Shown here: piece by piece, positions 1 through 5,948 of the stretch
Numbering within the stretch: position 1 is the stretch's first letter
Layout: every line of letters starts with the position of its first letter
Sequence record: MT446396.1
Source: Escherichia virus TH22
DNA length: 64,000 nt
Strand: one strand, 5' to 3'
Notes under the pieces: model-generated
Database searches by the model: none
The model's input: only the letters and a program-made list of their open reading frames with translations
Told to the model about the DNA's origin: nothing
Translations under genes and position numbers: made by a program

Positions 1-10
1 AATCTTAAAT

Positions 11-26
11 GGGGGCGAAAGCCCCC
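11..26 (+). other. GC-rich stem-loop GGGGGC-GAAA-GCCCCC (GNRA tetraloop) just upstream of the first ORF; no U-run
   Basis: Perfect 6-bp inverted repeat with GAAA loop read directly; followed by GAGGA Shine-Dalgarno and ATG at 41. Confidence 0.4.
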
Positions 27-40
27 TTGAGGAAAATACT

Positions 41-331
41 ATGTTTATGACTACTTACTTTGATACACGTAAAAATTTCTGTGAAGTTGTTTTCTCTAAA
101 AAAGGCCCTAATGTTCCTGCTGGGTGTGAACCAACACGTGATTCCATTAAGAACTATGTTGATGTAGTTTGCCCACTAGAATTCCGGACTGTTAATGGAC
201 GCGATACTCTGGCAATCACTAAGCTTAGTCGTGACATTAATATTGACCCAACCGTGGCGCGCGAAATTAATTCATCTGATATTAATGGCGGTAATGTTAA
301 ATCACACGGTTTCCAGATGAGGTTCCAATGA
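41..331 (+). CDS. hypothetical early protein (96 aa)
   Basis: ATG-initiated ORF with upstream GAGGA; stop overlaps the next start (ATGA); no recognisable motif. Confidence 0.4.
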   Translation: MFMTTYFDTRKNFCEVVFSKKGPNVPAGCEPTRDSIKNYVDVVCPLEFRTVNGRDTLAITKLSRDINIDPTVAREINSSDINGGNVKSHGFQMRFQ

Positions 332-522
332 AATTATTCTTATCACAAACTGTTCAGTTAAAAGGTGTGGGTATTCCTGGAATGATTTCAAAGGTCCTGC
401 CTACGTTTAAATTAGGCAATACCCAAATTAAAGAAGCATATGCAGTCTTGTGGGTTGATGGAACTGAAGACGTTCGCATGGGTGGTGAGTTGTCTGTAAT
501 CAAATGCTTAAAGCGAGGATAA
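328..522 (+). CDS. hypothetical early protein (64 aa)
   Basis: ORF coupled by ATGA overlap to the upstream ORF; same strand as the ligase operon. Confidence 0.35.
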   Translation: MKLFLSQTVQLKGVGIPGMISKVLPTFKLGNTQIKEAYAVLWVDGTEDVRMGGELSVIKCLKRG

Positions 523-523
523 T

Positions 524-736
524 ATGTTTAAGAAACTGATTCAGAAAATTTTGGGAACGGAAATGGTTGAAGTTACTTATCGCGTGACTGACGTAAGTCC
601 ATGGGCCCGAAATATTGAACCATATACTAAAACAATTAAAATGCTGAAATCTGACGGTGGATTATCTATTAAAGACCGTTTACCTGGTTATGGTCATTGG
701 GCTGATGTAGAGATTATCAGTGTCAAAAATGTCTGA
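524..736 (+). CDS. hypothetical early protein (70 aa)
   Basis: Tightly packed ORF in the early operon upstream of the ligase. Confidence 0.35.
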   Translation: MFKKLIQKILGTEMVEVTYRVTDVSPWARNIEPYTKTIKMLKSDGGLSIKDRLPGYGHWADVEIISVKNV

Positions 737-1187
737 GTTAGAAATCAGAAGCAATTTCCCATGGCCATCATGTGCATTAAGTAACTTTGCTAAATGGCCT
801 TTTGTTATGGAGGGTATCCAGTTTGGAGGTCTTGAAGGCTTCCTACAAGGGTGCAAGGTGAGAAATCATGAACAACAAAAACGTATATTTGGGATGTCCG
901 GATTGGCCGCCCAGCAAAGTGGAAGAGCTTATGCAAGAGCTGCGGACCGTGGGACGCTTTTCTGGCTTGGAATTCCCTTTTCAAGATACTCTGCAGCATG
1001 GAAAGAGCTGTATACAAATGCATATTTTGAAGCAGCGCTCCAGAACCAAGGATTCCGCAATGCGTTACAATCCACAAAAGGCAAAGTTTTAAAGCATTCG
1101 ATGGCGAGCCACCTTACTGTTCATGATACAATATTGACTGAACAAGAATTTATTGACATACTTAACCAATTGAGAGATGCATTATGA
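729..1187 (+). CDS. NADAR-domain (YbiA/DUF1768-like) protein, putative ADP-ribose N-glycosidase/hydrolase
   Basis: Motif LSNFAKWPFVMEGIQFGGLEGFLQGCKV resembles the YbiA signature FSNFAAWP...SEHYFQAQKF as recalled; internal ATG at 729 chosen over the GTG at 720 in the ORF track. Confidence 0.5.
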   Translation: MSELEIRSNFPWPSCALSNFAKWPFVMEGIQFGGLEGFLQGCKVRNHEQQKRIFGMSGLAAQQSGRAYARAADRGTLFWLGIPFSRYSAAWKELYTNAYFEAALQNQGFRNALQSTKGKVLKHSMASHLTVHDTILTEQEFIDILNQLRDAL

Positions 1188-2008
1188 AACCCGTTATTTT
1201 AACAGATATTGATGGCGTATGTTTGTCATGGCAGTCTGGCTTGCCTTATTTCGCTCAAAAATATAATTTACCCCTGGAACACATCCTTAAGATGATTCAG
1301 GATGAAAAATTTGTGACCCCTGGTAAACTTTTCAATTGTGATGAAGAGTTAGGCGCGCAGTTAATTGAAAAATATAACTGTTCAGACTTTATTCGCTATT
1401 TGTCTCCTTATGCGGATGCATTAAGGGTTATCAATAACCTCAAAGAGCAATATGATTTTGTGGCTGTTACAGCCCTGGGTGATTCTATTGATGCTCGCCT
1501 GAATCGTCAATTCAACCTGAATGCTTTGTTCCCTGGGGCATTTAAAGAAGTGATGATGTGCGGCCATACAGCTTCTAAAGAAGATTTGTTTCAGAAAGCG
1601 AAGACCAAATATAATGTCGTTTGTTATATTGATGACCTTGCCCACCATTGCGACCATGCGAGTGAAATTCTCGAGGTTCCGGTTTATTGGATGGCACGCG
1701 GCGAACGTGATGCTATTCCTAAAACAGCTTCCAAAGTTTTTAATTGGGACGATGTTGCTGGACAGCTTAAACTGAAACACAAAGATGAACCGGTCAAACC
1801 AGAATTCACTCCAGATGAACTCCGTAAACTGGAAGAGCTGTTTCGTGAAACTCGACGCCTTCAACAACAAATGCAGCAAGGCTGGCAGCCTGGTCAACCG
1901 TGGACTCCTGGGTATAATCCAGCATATCCATATCAATATGGTCAGCGTGTAGGTACTGGTATTGAATACTGGTACAATCAACCGACCGGTGGCCAAGGGG
2001 GTAATTGA
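1184..2008 (+). CDS. HAD-superfamily phosphatase, 5'(3')-deoxyribonucleotidase-like, with Q/P/Y/G-rich low-complexity C-terminal tail
   Basis: N-terminal LTDIDGV (HAD motif I DxDG) and later IDDL; C-terminal 50 aa is QQQMQQGWQPGQPWTPGYNPAYPYQYG...GGQGGN; ATGA overlap with upstream ORF. Confidence 0.5.
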   Translation: MKPVILTDIDGVCLSWQSGLPYFAQKYNLPLEHILKMIQDEKFVTPGKLFNCDEELGAQLIEKYNCSDFIRYLSPYADALRVINNLKEQYDFVAVTALGDSIDARLNRQFNLNALFPGAFKEVMMCGHTASKEDLFQKAKTKYNVVCYIDDLAHHCDHASEILEVPVYWMARGERDAIPKTASKVFNWDDVAGQLKLKHKDEPVKPEFTPDELRKLEELFRETRRLQQQMQQGWQPGQPWTPGYNPAYPYQYGQRVGTGIEYWYNQPTGGQGGN

Positions 2009-2286
2009 TGTTTGTCGTTCATACTATTTCTGACCGTGGTCCAACTACCACGATGGATTACGGTCATGTTAACCAGTTTATTCGTCATGTGAATTATAAT
2101 TACTCGTTTGATATTAATCCGGCTAAAGATAACCCCGTTTGGCGTGAATGCGTTGAGCAAGGATTTATCTATGTTCACTTCATGACCAAAATGAAACCAG
2201 ATGGGGCAACTAAATTTGTGTTCACTTATCATAAGCGGCTGGATTTGCTTTTGGAAGACGTGGCATATAATAGAGTCAACGACTAA
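2008..2286 (+). CDS. hypothetical early protein (92 aa)
   Basis: ORF starting at the ATG that overlaps the upstream TGA; GAGG Shine-Dalgarno of the ligase follows its stop. Confidence 0.4.
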   Translation: MFVVHTISDRGPTTTMDYGHVNQFIRHVNYNYSFDINPAKDNPVWRECVEQGFIYVHFMTKMKPDGATKFVFTYHKRLDLLLEDVAYNRVND

Positions 2287-2296
2287 GAGGTGATTA

Positions 2297-3829
2297 ATGA
2301 TTTTAGATATTTTAAATGAAATTGCTGCAACTGATTCTACGAAAGAGAAACAAGCTATCTTGGAATCGTATTCTGATAATGAAACCCTTAAACGTGTGTA
2401 TCGTTTGACATATTCCAAAGGCATCCAGTTCTATATCAAGAAATGGCCAAACGCTGGGTTAACTACCCAAAGCTTTGGCATGCTGAATATCGATGATATG
2501 CTTGACTTTATCGAATTCACATTAGCCGCGCGCAAATTAACAGGTAATGCTGCAATCGAGGAATTATCTGGCTATATTGCAGATGGTAAAAAAGATGATG
2601 TTGAAGTCTTGCGCCGCGTGATGATGCGTGACCTGGAATGTGGTGTGTCTGTATCAATTGCGAATAAGGTTTGGAAAGGTTTAATTCCTGAACAACCACA
2701 GATGCTCGCTTCTTCTTATGATGAAGCCGGTATTGCTAAGAACATTAAGTTCCCGGCATTTGCACAATTGAAAGCCGATGGTGCTCGGTGTTTTGCAGAA
2801 GTTCGTGGCGATGAGTTGGATGATGTTCGATTGCTATCCCGAGCTGGTAACGAATACCTTAAGCTTGACCTCCTTAAAAAGGAATTGATTGAAGCTACCC
2901 GTGAAGCGCGCGAGAGACATCCTGAGGGCGTTTTAATTGATGGCGAGTTAGTATACCATGAGCAGAAAGTAGCTCCCCAGAATGACGGTTTGGGCTTCCT
3001 TTTTGACGATTCAGATGAGATTGCTCCTGCAAAAGAATTTGCAGAATCAAGAACCTTTTCAAATGGCATGGCAAACAAATCATTAAAAGGAACTATTTCT
3101 GCGGCAGAAGCTTCTTGTATGAAATTCCAGGTTTGGGATTATGTTCCACTGATTGAAGTCTATTCTGATGTTAAGATTCTCAATCCACTGAAATATGATG
3201 TGCGTTTTGCTGTTCTGGAAAAGATGATTGCAGATAATGTGGTATTGCATGGTTTTGACCGCATGATTCTGATTGAAAACCATGTTGTTAACAATCTCGA
3301 TGAAGCGAAAGTTATCTATAAGAAATATGTAGATGAAGGTCTTGAAGGTATTATCCTTAAGAACATGGCATCGATTTGGGAAAACAAGCGCTCAAAGAAC
3401 CTGTATAAGTTCAAAGAAGTAATTGACATTGCAATGGAAATCATTGGATATTACGAGCACGATAAAGACCCGAATAAGATTGGCGGTGTGGTGCTTCGTT
3501 CTTCTTGTGGTAAGATTACAAATAACTGTGGTTCTGGTTTTAAAGACACAACTCAAGTCAAAGATAAGAAAACCAAAAAATGGGTTACTATTCCGATTGA
3601 GGAGCGTCATGAAATGGACCGTGAAGCCTTGATGGTTAAAGCACGTAAAGGTGAATTGGTTGGAATGATTGCCGACTGTGAATGCAATGGTTGGTTGACT
3701 TCCGAGACTCGTAAAGATAATACGGTTGCATTGTTCCTGCCGATTATTAAAGGGTTCCGTTTCGATAAAGACCATGCAGACACATTCGAAGATGTATTTG
3801 GCGACTGGTCAAAGACCGGGTTAAAATAA
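2297..3829 (+). CDS. 30: ATP-dependent DNA ligase
   Basis: 510 aa; N-terminus MILDILNEIAATDSTKEKQAILE and long colinear stretches (e.g. FAQLKADGARCFAEVRGDELDDVRLLSRAGNEY) match T4 gp30 as recalled. Confidence 0.95.
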   Translation: MILDILNEIAATDSTKEKQAILESYSDNETLKRVYRLTYSKGIQFYIKKWPNAGLTTQSFGMLNIDDMLDFIEFTLAARKLTGNAAIEELSGYIADGKKDDVEVLRRVMMRDLECGVSVSIANKVWKGLIPEQPQMLASSYDEAGIAKNIKFPAFAQLKADGARCFAEVRGDELDDVRLLSRAGNEYLKLDLLKKELIEATREARERHPEGVLIDGELVYHEQKVAPQNDGLGFLFDDSDEIAPAKEFAESRTFSNGMANKSLKGTISAAEASCMKFQVWDYVPLIEVYSDVKILNPLKYDVRFAVLEKMIADNVVLHGFDRMILIENHVVNNLDEAKVIYKKYVDEGLEGIILKNMASIWENKRSKNLYKFKEVIDIAMEIIGYYEHDKDPNKIGGVVLRSSCGKITNNCGSGFKDTTQVKDKKTKKWVTIPIEERHEMDREALMVKARKGELVGMIADCECNGWLTSETRKDNTVALFLPIIKGFRFDKDHADTFEDVFGDWSKTGLK

Positions 3830-3834
3830 CAAAA

Positions 3835-3852
3835 GGGCTTCGGCCCTTTTTT
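3835..3852 (+). terminator. rho-independent terminator GGGCC-UUCG-GGCCC + U6 after the ligase
   Basis: Hairpin plus T6 run read directly. Confidence 0.8.
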
Positions 3853-3854
3853 AG

Positions 3855-3862
3855 TATAAATA
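3855..3862 (+). promoter_or_regulatory. T4-type late promoter TATAAATA upstream of alt
   Basis: Exact TATAAATA about 25 nt upstream of the alt ATG. Confidence 0.6.
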
Positions 3863-3887
3863 CATCATATTTTATAAGGAACCTATT

Positions 3888-5948
3888 ATGTCTGAACAAT
3901 TAAATGAACTCTTTGACAAATATATCGAAGCCTTCGGTTATCCTGTCATTAATATGAATCCAAAATACAAGGTCCCACAGGTTTGGCAATTTGGTGTTCC
4001 TGGGACCAATTCTCTTATGGCTCGTTTGATGCAATTCACGGGCAAAGAAACAGTTAAACAATATAAACGCGGCGATGCAATTGCCGAGGTATTCCTGTTA
4101 TCCGGAACTTCACACGGTCATGCTGTTCCTCTGAAGGGTGGTTTAGGTGAAAAACCTCTTGATGCAATTAACTTGATTTTTACTACAGTCTGGGAAAGCA
4201 TTAAACTAGGCAAACCTGATGTAGTCTTGTTCCGTTTCCCATCCAAAAAGATGAAAGGACAAGACCAAGCTATTATTCGTATTATGAATCGACTGATTCA
4301 AATGAAAACCAGCGGACGTTATCATGTTCTTCCGAATGCTTCTGGCCTTGGTAAAAAGAACGCTTATGTAATTATGTACAAAAGGGGTGTTGACCTGCTT
4401 TCAGTCGATGGTATGCCACCAGTCCCTGAGAAATATAAAAAAGTCGAAACTAAAGTTGGTGATGTATTCACCAATAAAGATAATGGTGCACAAGTATCCA
4501 AACAAGAAATTGCAGCCGAGATTCTGATTGACGCAGCAAACAAAAAGACCGATGCTGCTGTTGCCCAGAAAACTAAAATCAGTCGCCGAGCTATTGCACA
4601 AGCCCAGTACGCTCCAAGTGATTCCGTGCCAGAAGGTTGGGACGAAATCGATGCAGAAGCTGCTAAGTTTAGTCGACCGGCTACGGCAGAACTTATCGAT
4701 GATTATGAAGAACTGGAAATTTTTGTTCGACCTTCCGAAACGAATACTATGGCTCGTATGCGCGCAGCAGATACGGCTATGCGAGCAAATGGTGTTTGGA
4801 AAGAAGAAATTCGTGTTGAAGACTCTGACCCAATTTTTAACCGTATGCATCGCGAACTTAAACGTGCTCCAGTTGGTAGTATGAAGCAGATGCAGATTTT
4901 TGCCGAATCATGCGCAGAGATTCTTAACCTTCGCAAAGCCGCATTTATCGAAAGAAAAATGAATGATGCTCCTCCTAATGTGGATGCAGCCACTTATGCA
5001 GCCTCGCTCTGGGAAAAAGAATACACAAGCGCCATTCGTGTTGCAGTTAAAGACTTTGCTGAAGAAGCATCAGAAAATACTCTTAATTTCACAGCAGGGT
5101 ATACTGACAACCGTTTCCATTATGGTCAGCGAGAAGCAATTGCAGATTATTGTGGAGCAAACTATGCCGATATTAATAATTATTTGATGGGCAAATATTA
5201 TGAAGAAGAAGCTGAATTCCTAAATCTAGACAGAGTTGTCGAAACAATTAAGGAATTGGATTCGGCCTTTGAAATTGGACATAAGTTGCCACCTAATACA
5301 ACTCTTTGGCGTGGTCAATATTTAAACGTTCCTACATTTGATAAAATTAAGAAATCTAAATTATTTTATTTCAGGAACTATGTATCAACGTCGTTTAAAC
5401 CGATTATCTTTGGTGGCTGGGTGGCGAACGTTGCTATGGCTGCAGTTCATCAGGACTATCGTGATGGGACATCTTTCCAGGCTGATGACGAAATTGTTTT
5501 ACCAGATATGCCGGAAGCACGCCGCGACCACGTAATGATGCATGTTGGTTGGAAAATTTCTGGGGCGGACTTAATTAACGTAATTGTTCCTGGGGAATTG
5601 TCAGGCAACCCATCCGAGCAGGAAGTTATTCTTCCTCGTGGGACTGTAGTTAAGATTACCAAAATTACTGATGCTTCGTATCAAGGAAACGCGAACGTCA
5701 AAATGCTGGAAGCTGATATCCAGACTACGGACCAACTGGATGAAAATGCAGTTATCTATGATGGTGATGTGTTGATGGAAACTGGTGAGCTTGTCGTTTA
5801 TCAGGGCGAGGAAACAGAAGAGCCAGTAGAATCTGTTGACTTTGCATCGTTTGCATCCTCTGGGGTAACGAAGAAAGTCAATCAAGGTCTTGGTATTCTT
5901 GCTAGTTGTATTAATTTGGAAGCTATTCCTCCTAAATTCCTTTCGTAA
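3888..5948 (+). CDS. alt: Alt-like ADP-ribosyltransferase (capsid-packaged, injected)
   Basis: 686 aa (T4 Alt about 682 aa); position between ligase and gene 54 as in T4; C-terminal R-S-E motifs (LWRGQ, YVSTSF, EQEVILPRG). Confidence 0.85.
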   Translation: MSEQLNELFDKYIEAFGYPVINMNPKYKVPQVWQFGVPGTNSLMARLMQFTGKETVKQYKRGDAIAEVFLLSGTSHGHAVPLKGGLGEKPLDAINLIFTTVWESIKLGKPDVVLFRFPSKKMKGQDQAIIRIMNRLIQMKTSGRYHVLPNASGLGKKNAYVIMYKRGVDLLSVDGMPPVPEKYKKVETKVGDVFTNKDNGAQVSKQEIAAEILIDAANKKTDAAVAQKTKISRRAIAQAQYAPSDSVPEGWDEIDAEAAKFSRPATAELIDDYEELEIFVRPSETNTMARMRAADTAMRANGVWKEEIRVEDSDPIFNRMHRELKRAPVGSMKQMQIFAESCAEILNLRKAAFIERKMNDAPPNVDAATYAASLWEKEYTSAIRVAVKDFAEEASENTLNFTAGYTDNRFHYGQREAIADYCGANYADINNYLMGKYYEEEAEFLNLDRVVETIKELDSAFEIGHKLPPNTTLWRGQYLNVPTFDKIKKSKLFYFRNYVSTSFKPIIFGGWVANVAMAAVHQDYRDGTSFQADDEIVLPDMPEARRDHVMMHVGWKISGADLINVIVPGELSGNPSEQEVILPRGTVVKITKITDASYQGNANVKMLEADIQTTDQLDENAVIYDGDVLMETGELVVYQGEETEEPVESVDFASFASSGVTKKVNQGLGILASCINLEAIPPKFLS

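What the first reader, a model, noticed from the sequence alone, without database searches (positions are those of the whole stretch)
1184..2008. HAD-type phosphatase with an unusual Q/P/Y/G-rich low-complexity C-terminal tail
The first 220 residues look like a HAD-superfamily 5'(3')-deoxyribonucleotidase (DIDGV motif I, IDDL later). The last 50 residues are a strongly biased low-complexity segment (QQQMQQGWQPGQPWTPGYNPAYPYQYG...GGQGGN), reminiscent of disordered or prion-like regions. This is unusual for a phage nucleotide-metabolism enzyme and may mediate condensate formation or protein interactions.
Basis: seen in the sequence. Interest (0 to 1): 0.4.

Follow-up and report, generated by a model that had tools for sequence, protein, structure and literature searches.

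The report
Phage phosphatase with portable docking tail
This is the T4 gene 30.2 protein, a HAD-type phosphatase of unknown role, and its odd tail is not filler: it ends in a strictly conserved short peptide that an unrelated phage family also carries on a different small protein, both times beside the DNA ligase gene.

Summary
Window 1184..2008 (+) encodes a 274-aa protein with a HAD core and a very biased tail. It is the ortholog of T4 gp30.2, a gene of unknown function, non-essential in T4, found in more than 1,400 T4-like phage genomes and always just upstream of DNA ligase. All four HAD motifs are invariant. The fold is a C1-capped HAD, and 5'(3')-deoxyribonucleotidase (NT5C) is the nearest specific family, but only below threshold.

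The tail is translated and constrained: indels are in frame and dN/dS is 0.05, against 0.03 for the core. It is not prion-like filler. It consists of a confident helix, a Pro/aromatic-rich disordered linker, and a conserved tip (PWxPG ... GxGIEY[W/L]xNQPT).

The new finding is that the same tip, identical over GIEYWYNQPT, sits on a small Zn-ribbon-like protein in Salmonella phage 7-11 and its relatives. That gene overlaps their DNA ligase gene. All nucleotide differences in the shared decapeptide are synonymous.

I read the tip as a portable docking peptide whose partner is unidentified. The T4 sliding clamp gp45 looked plausible but is essentially excluded, because phage 7-11 has no gp45 homolog. 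No paper describing the motif was found.

The parts
1184..2008 (+). Gene 30.2 ortholog, 274 aa plus stop. Its start ATG overlaps the stop of 30.3 (ATGA), and its stop overlaps the start of 30.1 (TGATG).
   Evidence: PHROG 420 at E 1e-78. 66% identical to T4 gp30.2.
1184..1780 (+). HAD core with a helical C1 cap, residues 1-199.
1205..1219 (+). HAD motif I, DIDGV (D8 nucleophile, D10). The following W16-Q-S-G-L aligns with F-E-S-G-L of mouse cdN.
   Evidence: D8, D10 and W16 are invariant in A1. Alignment to 2jao.
1469..1471 (+). HAD motif II, T96 (VAVTALG).
   Evidence: Kept in at least 90% of 114 homologs.
1577..1579 (+). HAD motif III, K132.
   Evidence: Invariant.
1631..1636 (+). HAD motif IV, D150-D151 (YIDDL).
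   Evidence: Invariant.
1811..1879 (+). Amphipathic helix, residues 210-232 (TPDELRKLEELFRETRRLQQQMQQ).
   Evidence: AF2 models a helix with pLDDT about 88-94. dN/dS is 0.10 for residues 200-232.
1880..1951 (+). Disordered Q/P/G/Y/W-rich linker, residues 233-256. It contains the conserved PW-x-PG element (PWTPG, 1898..1912).
   Evidence: pLDDT 42-63. W and P are enriched 2.9-fold and 2.8-fold in tails across the family. The W-x-x-P element is aligned.
1952..1987 (+). Conserved tip of the tail, GTGIEYWYNQPT (residues 257-268): the portable module.
   Evidence: Present in 19 of 60 tailed cluster representatives. Alignments A2 and A3. Identical decapeptide in phage 7-11 gp042, pSal-SNUABM-01 and P0117, with only synonymous nucleotide differences.
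1988..2005 (+). GGQGGN C-terminus. GGQ(GG) also follows the module in 7-11-like phages.
729..1187 (+). Context: gene 30.3 = adfN, a NADAR DNA ADP-ribosylglycohydrolase that counters DarTG1. It is full length and keeps E36 and K43.
   Evidence: PF08010 at E 1e-62. 127 of 152 residues identical to T4 AdfN. Function taken from PMC11257639.
2008..2286 (+). Context: gene 30.1 (DUF3045), function unknown.
   Evidence: PF11243 at E 9e-18.
2297..3829 (+). Context: ATP-dependent DNA ligase (gp30). Its loop GLGFLF (2987..3004) corresponds to the T4 gp45-binding LDFLF loop.
   Evidence: Loop function in T4 taken from PMC6212786.

Best explanation
The gene encodes the gp30.2 protein of a Gaprivervirus-type T4-like coliphage.

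Shown:
- It is a catalytically competent-looking, C1-capped HAD phosphomonoesterase.
- It carries a helix, a flexible Pro/aromatic-rich linker and a strictly conserved tip, PW-x-PG ... G-x-G-I-E-Y-[W/L]-x-N-Q-P-T.
- The tail is translated and is under purifying selection nearly as strong as on the enzyme core.
- The tip is a portable module. It also sits on an unrelated small Zn-ribbon-like protein in 7-11-like Grimontviridae phages.
- Both carrier genes lie directly beside the phage's ATP-dependent DNA ligase gene.

Inferred:
- The core hydrolyses a small phosphorylated metabolite, most likely a (deoxy)nucleoside monophosphate or a related nucleotide-derived phosphate.
- The tail works as a leash plus short linear docking motif that holds the enzyme on a partner.
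- The partner is shared by T4-like and 7-11-like infections of Enterobacteriaceae. It is either a conserved host protein or the phage DNA ligase / DNA-end machinery. Its identity is not established.
For: Identity and synteny.

Tail is real and constrained: 10 genomes are in frame, all indels are multiples of 3, and tail dN/dS is 0.049 against 0.030 for the core. In the tail, 19 variable codon columns are synonymous-only and 6 change the residue.

Tail is disordered beyond residue 232: pLDDT 36-63.

Motif conservation across genera whose cores are only about 47-66% identical.

Portability: a profile of the tails finds the non-HAD protein P0117 at E 8.9e-5 among 1.84e9 proteins. Phage 7-11 gp042 reads IPWRNPGAGGIEYWYNQPTAIGGQ. 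pSal-SNUABM-01 reads RPWRDFLSGPGGIEYWYNQPTALTGGQGG. A further variant, STGIEYWMNQPTS, is in L039. In the shared decapeptide, 23-26 of 30 nucleotides are identical and every difference is synonymous.

Ligase adjacency: it holds in T4-likes including distant ones that lack 30.1 and 30.3, and in 7-11, SE131, pSal, A24, PKM.Lu and ECO319P1.
Against: No partner has been identified and no binding has been shown.

About half of the gp30.2 homologs have no tail. These include the closely related E. coli Dhakavirus phages, whose protein is 212 aa with a clean end. T4 30.2 is dispensable on E. coli K-12. So the tail is accessory.

Other tail classes carry different tips, such as L[RK]AYY or YxLLNKVxANDS. 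One closest relative of the 7-11 protein replaces the core decapeptide (P0122). The motif is therefore replaceable.

Ligase adjacency in each lineage is inherited synteny, so it amounts to only two independent events.

Confidence: 0.5

Rival explanations
1. The tail is a prion-like, low-complexity region. It drives phase separation or partitioning into condensates (for example SSB-like or replication foci), and works through its composition rather than its sequence.
For: Composition is extreme: 78% Q/P/G/Y/W/N in the last 50 aa, unique in the window. The model is disordered there. A repeat unit can duplicate: NPAYPYQY occurs twice in phage 212. From general knowledge, G/Q/P-rich linkers such as that of E. 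coli SSB can phase-separate.
Against: The Q/G richness is confined to this genus. Across the family the enriched residues are W, P and T, while Q is enriched only 1.45-fold and G 1.2-fold. The sequence itself is conserved, not just the composition: dN/dS is 0.05, and the decapeptide is identical in an unrelated phage with saturated synonymous sites. The biased stretch is only about 45 aa.
Confidence: 0.1
2. The tip is a sliding-clamp (gp45) binding motif. It would tether the phosphatase to the replisome as the LDFLF/LDFLY motifs of T4 ligase, gp43, gp55 and gp33 do.
For: T4 gp30.2 KPGG-IEYLY-N is a conservative match to the ligase loop PEG-LDFLF-D and to the gp55 tip LDFLY. The motif lies at the end of a flexible tail. 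The gene sits next to the ligase gene, whose product binds gp45.
Against: Phage 7-11 carries the identical decapeptide but has no gp45 or clamp-loader homolog. The best tblastn hit is E 0.3 over 18 aa, and it uses a Pol I-type polymerase with a primase-helicase. The gp55 and gp43 tips stay LDFLY and LFDMFDF in SP18 and IME523, and gp55 stays LDFLY in Cronus, while their gp30.2 tails differ completely. The 5-residue pattern is expected 1.4 times by chance in the window's ORFs. The conserved N-Q-P-T part has no counterpart in clamp motifs.
Confidence: 0.04
3. The tail acts within the enzyme itself. It would be an autoinhibitory or oligomerisation element that folds onto the HAD core or onto a neighbouring subunit.
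For: Helix 210-232 is modelled with high confidence next to the core. From general knowledge, related nucleotidases (cdN, mdN) are dimers.
Against: AF2 does not dock residues 233-274 on the core (pLDDT 36-63). The same module occurs on a protein with no HAD domain. Many active-looking homologs have no tail.
Confidence: 0.1
4. The tail is an annotation or frameshift artefact, or evolutionarily neutral junk.
For: Tails vary greatly in length and sequence between genera, and about half of the homologs lack one.
Against: The frame is kept in all 10 close genomes, indels are multiples of 3, and dN/dS is 0.05. T4 itself has a 279-aa protein with the same motifs. The motif is conserved across phage families.
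Confidence: 0.01

Closest known systems
Bacteriophage T4 gp30.2 (PHROG 420, annotated as hypothetical protein)
   Same: It is the ortholog: 66% identity over 270 aa. The operon position is the same (30.3-30.2-30.1-30), as is the layout of HAD core, helix, P/W-rich linker and IEY[L/W]YN[R/Q]PT tip.
   Different: The tail here is richer in Q and G and ends GGQGGN. The T4 tail is richer in H, P and N and ends GDNIFQGAF. The tip variant here (IEYWYNQPT..GGQ) is closer to the 7-11-like version than to the T4 version.
5'(3')-deoxyribonucleotidases cdN/mdN and bacterial dNT-like proteins (Pfam NT5C, PF06941; PDB 2jao, 2i7d, 1q92, 3bwv)
   Same: Both are HADs with a four-helix C1 cap. Both have the DxDGV motif I followed by an aromatic residue and xSGL (W16-QSGL here, F-ESGL in cdN). 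These are the top Foldseek hits and the only specific Pfam subfamily seen.
C-terminal or loop clamp-binding peptides of T4 gp43, gp55, gp33 and DNA ligase (LDFL[FY])
   Same: A short aromatic/acidic peptide on a flexible segment of variable length and sequence, used as a tether. It works like this in architecture.
   Different: The motif is longer (G-x-G-I-E-Y-[WL]-x-N-Q-P-T). It does not co-vary with those peptides. It also occurs in a phage without gp45, so the partner is different.
Small ligase-adjacent proteins of Grimontviridae (PHROG 38244, unknown function; phage 7-11 gp042)
   Same: They carry the same PWR..GGIEYWYNQPT..GGQ module, and their gene is translationally coupled to an ATP-dependent DNA ligase gene.
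   Different: The carrier domain is entirely different: N-terminal helices plus CPxCG..H[FY]C, with no HAD. Some members (A24, PKM.Lu.22.1, P0122) lack the core motif.

Membership tests
HAD superfamily phosphatases | Motif I, DxDx[TV], with the nucleophile Asp | tested here: met
   D8-I-D10-G-V. D8 and D10 are invariant in 114 homologs.
HAD superfamily phosphatases | Motif II (Thr/Ser), motif III (Lys), motif IV (DD) | tested here: met
   T96 is kept in at least 90% of homologs. K132, D150 and D151 are invariant.
HAD superfamily phosphatases | Rossmannoid core fold with a cap inserted after motif I (C1) | tested here: met
HAD superfamily phosphatases | Passes a curated Pfam HAD model threshold | tested here: not met
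   HAD_2 scores 13 bits against a cut-off of 23.8. Among homologs the best PF00702 E-value is 1e-4. The family is too divergent for the current models.
HAD superfamily phosphatases | Mg-dependent phosphomonoesterase activity | not testable with these tools
   Needs an enzyme assay.
5'(3')-deoxyribonucleotidase (NT5C, PF06941) | Sequence membership at the Pfam threshold | tested here: not met
   19 of 114 homologs match, with a best E-value of 0.002. The window protein itself does not match.
5'(3')-deoxyribonucleotidase (NT5C, PF06941) | Closest solved structures, and a shared base-stacking aromatic after motif I | tested here: inconclusive
5'(3')-deoxyribonucleotidase (NT5C, PF06941) | dNMP phosphatase activity | not testable with these tools
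   Needs a substrate panel.
T4 gp30.2 family (PHROG 420) | Profile match and a conserved position upstream of DNA ligase | tested here: met
   E 1e-78. Synteny.
gp45 sliding-clamp binding peptides | A hydrophobic/acidic [LI][DE]FL[FY]-type peptide on a flexible end, conserved together with a cognate clamp | tested here: not met
   The pattern matches in class A tails only. There is no co-variation with the gp55 and gp43 tips. The identical peptide is present in a clamp-less phage.
Prion-like / low-complexity domains | A long Q/N-rich stretch (usually at least 60 aa) constrained in composition rather than in sequence | tested here: not met
   The stretch is about 45 aa. The Q/G bias is genus-specific. 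The constraint is on the sequence. The 60-aa criterion comes from general knowledge of PLAAC-type predictors; no predictor was run.
Short linear docking motif in a disordered tail | A conserved short peptide in a disordered, fast-evolving region that is portable between unrelated carrier proteins | tested here: met
Short linear docking motif in a disordered tail | A demonstrated binding partner | not testable with these tools
   No complex prediction or experiment was available.

The most novel reading that the evidence does not exclude
PW-x-PG ... G-x-G-I-E-Y-[W/L]-x-N-Q-P-T is a previously undescribed phage docking peptide. It would recruit accessory proteins encoded next to ligase genes (a HAD nucleotidase in T4-like phages, a Zn-ribbon protein in 7-11-like phages) to one conserved target in infected Enterobacteriaceae. 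That target would be either the ATP-dependent DNA ligase or nick-sealing machinery, or a host replication/repair hub protein. The peptide would define a new, exchangeable address tag for DNA-end metabolism or counter-defence.
Probability: 0.3. Interest if true: 0.7.

Novelty: new variant of a known kind. Interest (0 to 1): 0.5.

Why it matters
gp30.2 is one of the widely conserved T4 genes still labelled 'hypothetical'. It sits between the anti-DarT enzyme AdfN and DNA ligase.

The tail tip is a mobile peptide under strong selection, shared with an unrelated phage family and linked to ligase genes both times. That gives a concrete handle: a 12-residue peptide that can serve as bait to find the partner and hence the pathway.

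If the partner is a host hub or the ligase, this would add a new docking motif to the small set known for phage replication and repair proteins. It would also explain why an apparently ordinary nucleotidase is kept beside the ligase gene across the T4-like phages examined here.

If no partner is found, the result is still useful. The protein can be annotated as a HAD phosphatase, NT5C-like, with an accessory and frequently lost tail.

Tried and rejected
1. gp45 clamp binding. This was attractive because IEYLY resembles LDFLF/LDFLY. I rejected it for three reasons. The gp55 and gp43 tips are invariant while gp30.2 tails change class. The pattern is expected 1.4 times by chance. Phage 7-11 has the peptide but no clamp.

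3. Host mimicry. DNA-pattern scans of 185,579 bacterial and archaeal genomes found no copy of the W-variant. The relaxed pattern gave two hits, against about 3 expected by chance. One is a stray phage-like 568-bp scaffold and the other is noise.

4. Other carriers of the module.
- Scans of IMG/VR and JGI metagenomes returned only T4-like and 7-11-like loci.
- A tblastn search with the tail against 50,697 phage records hit only 30.2 loci.
- A word-indexed profile search returned only tail fragments.

5. Functional link to AdfN. 30.3 is absent next to 30.2 in some distant T4-likes, whereas ligase is always adjacent, so the link is not required.

6. Rosetta-stone fusion of 30.2 with 30.1 (P0020). 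It rests on a single 1.4-kb contig, which is too weak to use.

7. Literature. I found no paper on gp30.2 or on the peptide.

8. Promoter and terminator scan of 1..4200. Nothing exceeded the shuffled controls.

9. A fused-chain AlphaFold test of tail against ligase or gp45 was not attempted.

Full report
**Observation.** Window 1184..2008 (+) is an intact ORF of 274 codons.
- Residues 8-12 are DIDGV and residues 149-152 are IDDL.
- The last 50 residues are RLQQQMQQGWQPGQPWTPGYNPAYPYQYGQRVGTGIEYWYNQPTGGQGGN.
- Q, P, G, Y, W and N make up 78% of that stretch. No other 50-residue stretch reaches this among 15,888 taken from the 55 window ORFs of at least 150 aa. Its entropy (3.27 bits) is the minimum of the protein, whose mean is 3.91 (sd 0.18).

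**What the gene is.**
- The DNA is 100% identical to Escherichia phages TH55 and UPEC07 and 92-98% identical to Gaprivervirus phages (SP18, VR7, VR20, VR26).
- The protein matches PHROG 420 ('unknown function') at E 1e-78. It is 66% identical to T4 gp30.2.
- The neighbours are the T4 set: 30.3 (PF08010) upstream, with ATGA start/stop overlap; 30.1 (DUF3045) downstream, with TGATG overlap; then DNA ligase gp30 and Alt.
- Homologs occur in 1,439 of 50,697 phage records, essentially all T4-like.
- In divergent T4-likes that lack 30.1 and/or 30.3, the gene still abuts the ligase gene (L012, L014, L015).
- In T4 the gene is non-essential on E. coli K-12: 72 of 72 insertion sites are hit in the HIDEN-SEQ supplement.
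- I found no paper on gp30.2.

**The enzyme core.**
- In an alignment of 114 family members, D8, D10, K132, D150 and D151 are invariant, and T96 is kept in at least 90%. That is the full set of HAD motifs I-IV.
- AlphaFold2 with this alignment gives pLDDT 87 overall and above 90 for nearly all of residues 1-199. The fold is a Rossmannoid core with a helical cap inserted right after motif I.
- Foldseek against the PDB puts mouse cytosolic 5'(3')-deoxyribonucleotidase first (2jao, E 1.6e-8). Other deoxyribonucleotidases have the lowest rmsd.
- A profile search of PDB sequences gives only two near-equal weak matches: an unrelated GTP-binding protein (2cxx, E 0.18) and 2jao (E 0.24), the only HAD. 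The 2jao alignment pairs DGV..W16-QSGL with cdN DGV..F-ESGL.
- Scanning all members against Pfam gives only sub-threshold hits: PF00702 in 23 members, NT5C in 19, HAD_2 in 10.
- Conclusion: this is an active-looking, C1-capped HAD of a family of its own. NT5C-type nucleotidases are the nearest specific relatives. The capped architecture points to a small-molecule substrate (inference from established HAD structure-function knowledge).

**The tail is real and constrained.**
- Nine relatives at 92-98% DNA identity all keep the frame. Indels are +24 nt (a duplicated NPAYPYQY), -6, -9 and -12 nt.
- Pairwise Nei-Gojobori dN/dS is 0.030 for residues 1-199, 0.10 for residues 200-232 and 0.049 for residues 233-274. 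In the tail, 19 variable codon columns are synonymous-only and 6 change the residue.
- The frameshift-artefact reading is refuted.

**Anatomy and evolution of the tail.**
- AF2 models residues 210-232 as a confident helix (pLDDT about 88-94). Residues 233-274 are disordered (pLDDT 36-63).
- Across the family, 52 of 114 proteins have at most 25 residues after the core and 54 have more than 50.
- The closely related E. coli Dhakavirus phages have a clean 212-aa protein with no tail.
- In tails, W and P are enriched 2.9-fold and 2.8-fold, while Q (1.45-fold) and G (1.2-fold) are barely enriched. The Q/G-rich, 'prion-like' look is therefore peculiar to this genus.
- What is shared is a motif array: W-x-x-P, then P-[WY]-Y, then G-x-G-T-G-I-E-Y-[LW]-x-x-Q-P-T-[AS]. 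It occurs in 19 of 60 tailed cluster representatives. These include T4, this phage, and Enterobacter/Klebsiella/Citrobacter/Cronobacter phages such as CC31, PG7 and KaAlpha, whose cores are only about 47-66% identical.
- Other lineages end in different tips: L[RK]AYY, LRA[ST]F, Y-x-LLNKV-x-ANDS, DWWNN-x-RIT. Some of these look like diverged versions of the same array.

**The unexpected part.**
- A profile of the class-A tails was searched against 1.84 billion representative proteins. Besides a known homolog, it returned P0117 (E 8.9e-5). This is a 152-aa non-HAD protein containing KPYGVGTGIEYWYNQPTS.
- Its relatives are in Salmonella phages 7-11, SE131 and pSal-SNUABM-01 (Grimontviridae), which are unrelated to T4.
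- Phage 7-11 gp042 (123 aa) has N-terminal helices and a CPTCG..AHFC element, followed by IPWRNPGAGGIEYWYNQPTAIGGQ.
- pSal-SNUABM-01 has RPWRDFLSGPGGIEYWYNQPTALTGGQGG. A stray scaffold has STGIEYWMNQPTS.
- So both tail elements (PW-x-PG and the tip), and even the trailing GGQ(GG), recur on a different carrier protein.
- Codon comparison of GIEYWYNQPT shows 23, 26 and 24 of 30 nucleotides identical to the window. Every difference is synonymous. This indicates long-term selection on the peptide rather than a recent DNA transfer.
- The carrier gene overlaps the stop codon of the ATP-dependent DNA ligase gene in 7-11, and is likewise ligase-adjacent in SE131, pSal-SNUABM-01, A24, PKM.Lu.22.1 and ECO319P1. 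The family is PHROG 38244, of unknown function, with no Pfam match.
- Some members (A24, PKM.Lu, P0122) lack the core decapeptide. The module is therefore an add-on in both families.
- Two independent ligase-adjacent carriers of one peptide is unlikely by chance, roughly 1-2% for each lineage. That figure is my estimate and is post hoc.

**Who is the partner?**
- The T4 clamp gp45 was my first idea. The T4 ligase loop EPEGLDFLFD and the gp43 tip SLDFLFG bind gp45 (PMC6212786). The gp55 tip here is LDFLY. T4 gp30.2 reads KPGGIEYLYN.
- The idea fails on three counts:
  - The gp55 and gp43 tips are unchanged in SP18 and IME523, and gp55 is unchanged in Cronus, while the gp30.2 tails of these phages belong to different classes.
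  - The 5-residue pattern is expected 1.4 times by chance in the window's ORFs.
  - Phage 7-11 has no gp45 or clamp-loader homolog and uses a Pol I-type polymerase.
- Scans of bacterial genomes found no host copy of the peptide, so there is no evidence for mimicry of a host protein.
- What the two systems share is an enterobacterial host and an ATP-dependent DNA ligase. The two ligases are 26% identical over 304 aa (E 1e-12).
- The partner is therefore most likely a conserved host protein or the ligase / DNA-end machinery. This is inference; nothing here shows binding.

**Context.**
- The upstream gene 30.3 is AdfN, the NADAR DNA ADP-ribosylglycohydrolase that defeats DarTG1 (PMC11257639). Here it is full length, 84% identical to T4 AdfN, and keeps E36 and K43.
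- HAD 5'-nucleotidases are found coupled to ADP-ribose-releasing enzymes in other systems (PMC9503650). Clearing ADP-ribose-derived phosphates is therefore a possible substrate context.
- However, 30.3 is not always next to 30.2, whereas ligase is.

**Verdict.**
- The tail is better described as a leash with a portable, strongly selected docking peptide than as a prion-like region.
- The protein is a known but uncharacterised family. As far as I could search, the shared module and its association with ligase genes are new.
- Mechanism confidence is moderate for 'docking motif' and low for any particular partner.

Noticed in passing
window 729..1187 (+): Gene 30.3 is a full-length AdfN, the NADAR DNA ADP-ribosylglycohydrolase that counters DarTG1. 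It is 127/152 identical to T4 AdfN, keeps catalytic E36 and K43, and is not truncated as in RB69. The phage should therefore resist DarTG1.
   Followed up: partly
window 2987..3004 (+), inside the ligase gene 2297..3829: The ligase loop that binds gp45 in T4 (LDFLF) reads GLGFLF here. The acidic residue is replaced by Gly, and an acidic run (DDSDE) follows.
   Followed up: no
window 3831..3850: A perfect GC-rich hairpin (AAAAGGGCCGAAGCCCTTTT) sits between ligase and alt and has a T-run on the minus strand. It looks like a terminator; it was picked up on the minus strand by the scan.
   Followed up: no
L006 (Escherichia phage 212), tail of gp30.2: There is a 24-nt in-frame tandem duplication, giving NPAYPYQY twice. 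Phage MN01 has lost QQM and VR7 has lost QR. The linker changes length by whole repeat units while the tip stays fixed.
   Followed up: partly
P0020 / L022 234..1142: This is a 302-aa natural fusion of the gp30.2 core with a DUF3045 (gp30.1) domain. It is seen on one 1.4-kb contig only. It may hint that 30.2 and 30.1 act together, or it may be an assembly or indel artefact.
   Followed up: partly
P0063, P0064 (Yersinia phage phiR1-RT type) and P0096: Some gp30.2 homologs replace the tail with a C-terminal extension of about 110-150 aa of ordinary (non-biased) composition. P0096 carries a Cys-rich end (CVGC...YYCGGAPWCCP). So the C-terminus of this enzyme is a general site for swapping modules.
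   Followed up: no
L032 8303..8545 and L024 3853..4092 (7-11-like phages): The ORF after the module-bearing protein is another small Cys-containing protein. It has a low-complexity SSPSYDSSPSCDYSSPSCD tail.
   Followed up: no
L047/L048 (Salmonella phage 7-11): Phage 7-11 carries several genes annotated as similar to T4-like accessory genes: Tk.4 (reported as an anti-DarTG2 hit in T4), Srd, gp30.9, RB51ORF087 and RB49p189. This shows gene flow between the two phage groups, which could have moved the peptide module.
   Followed up: no
L016 (Agrobacterium phage Atu_ph07), 3986..4606: A distant gp30.2-like HAD (25% identity) lies two genes downstream of a clamp-loader (RFC small subunit) gene and next to PhoH, with a Nudix gene nearby. 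There is no ligase within 4 kb.
   Followed up: no
window 1421..1996 (-): A 191-codon antisense ORF overlaps most of 30.2. The codon-level selection pattern fits the plus frame, so this ORF is probably spurious.
   Followed up: partly
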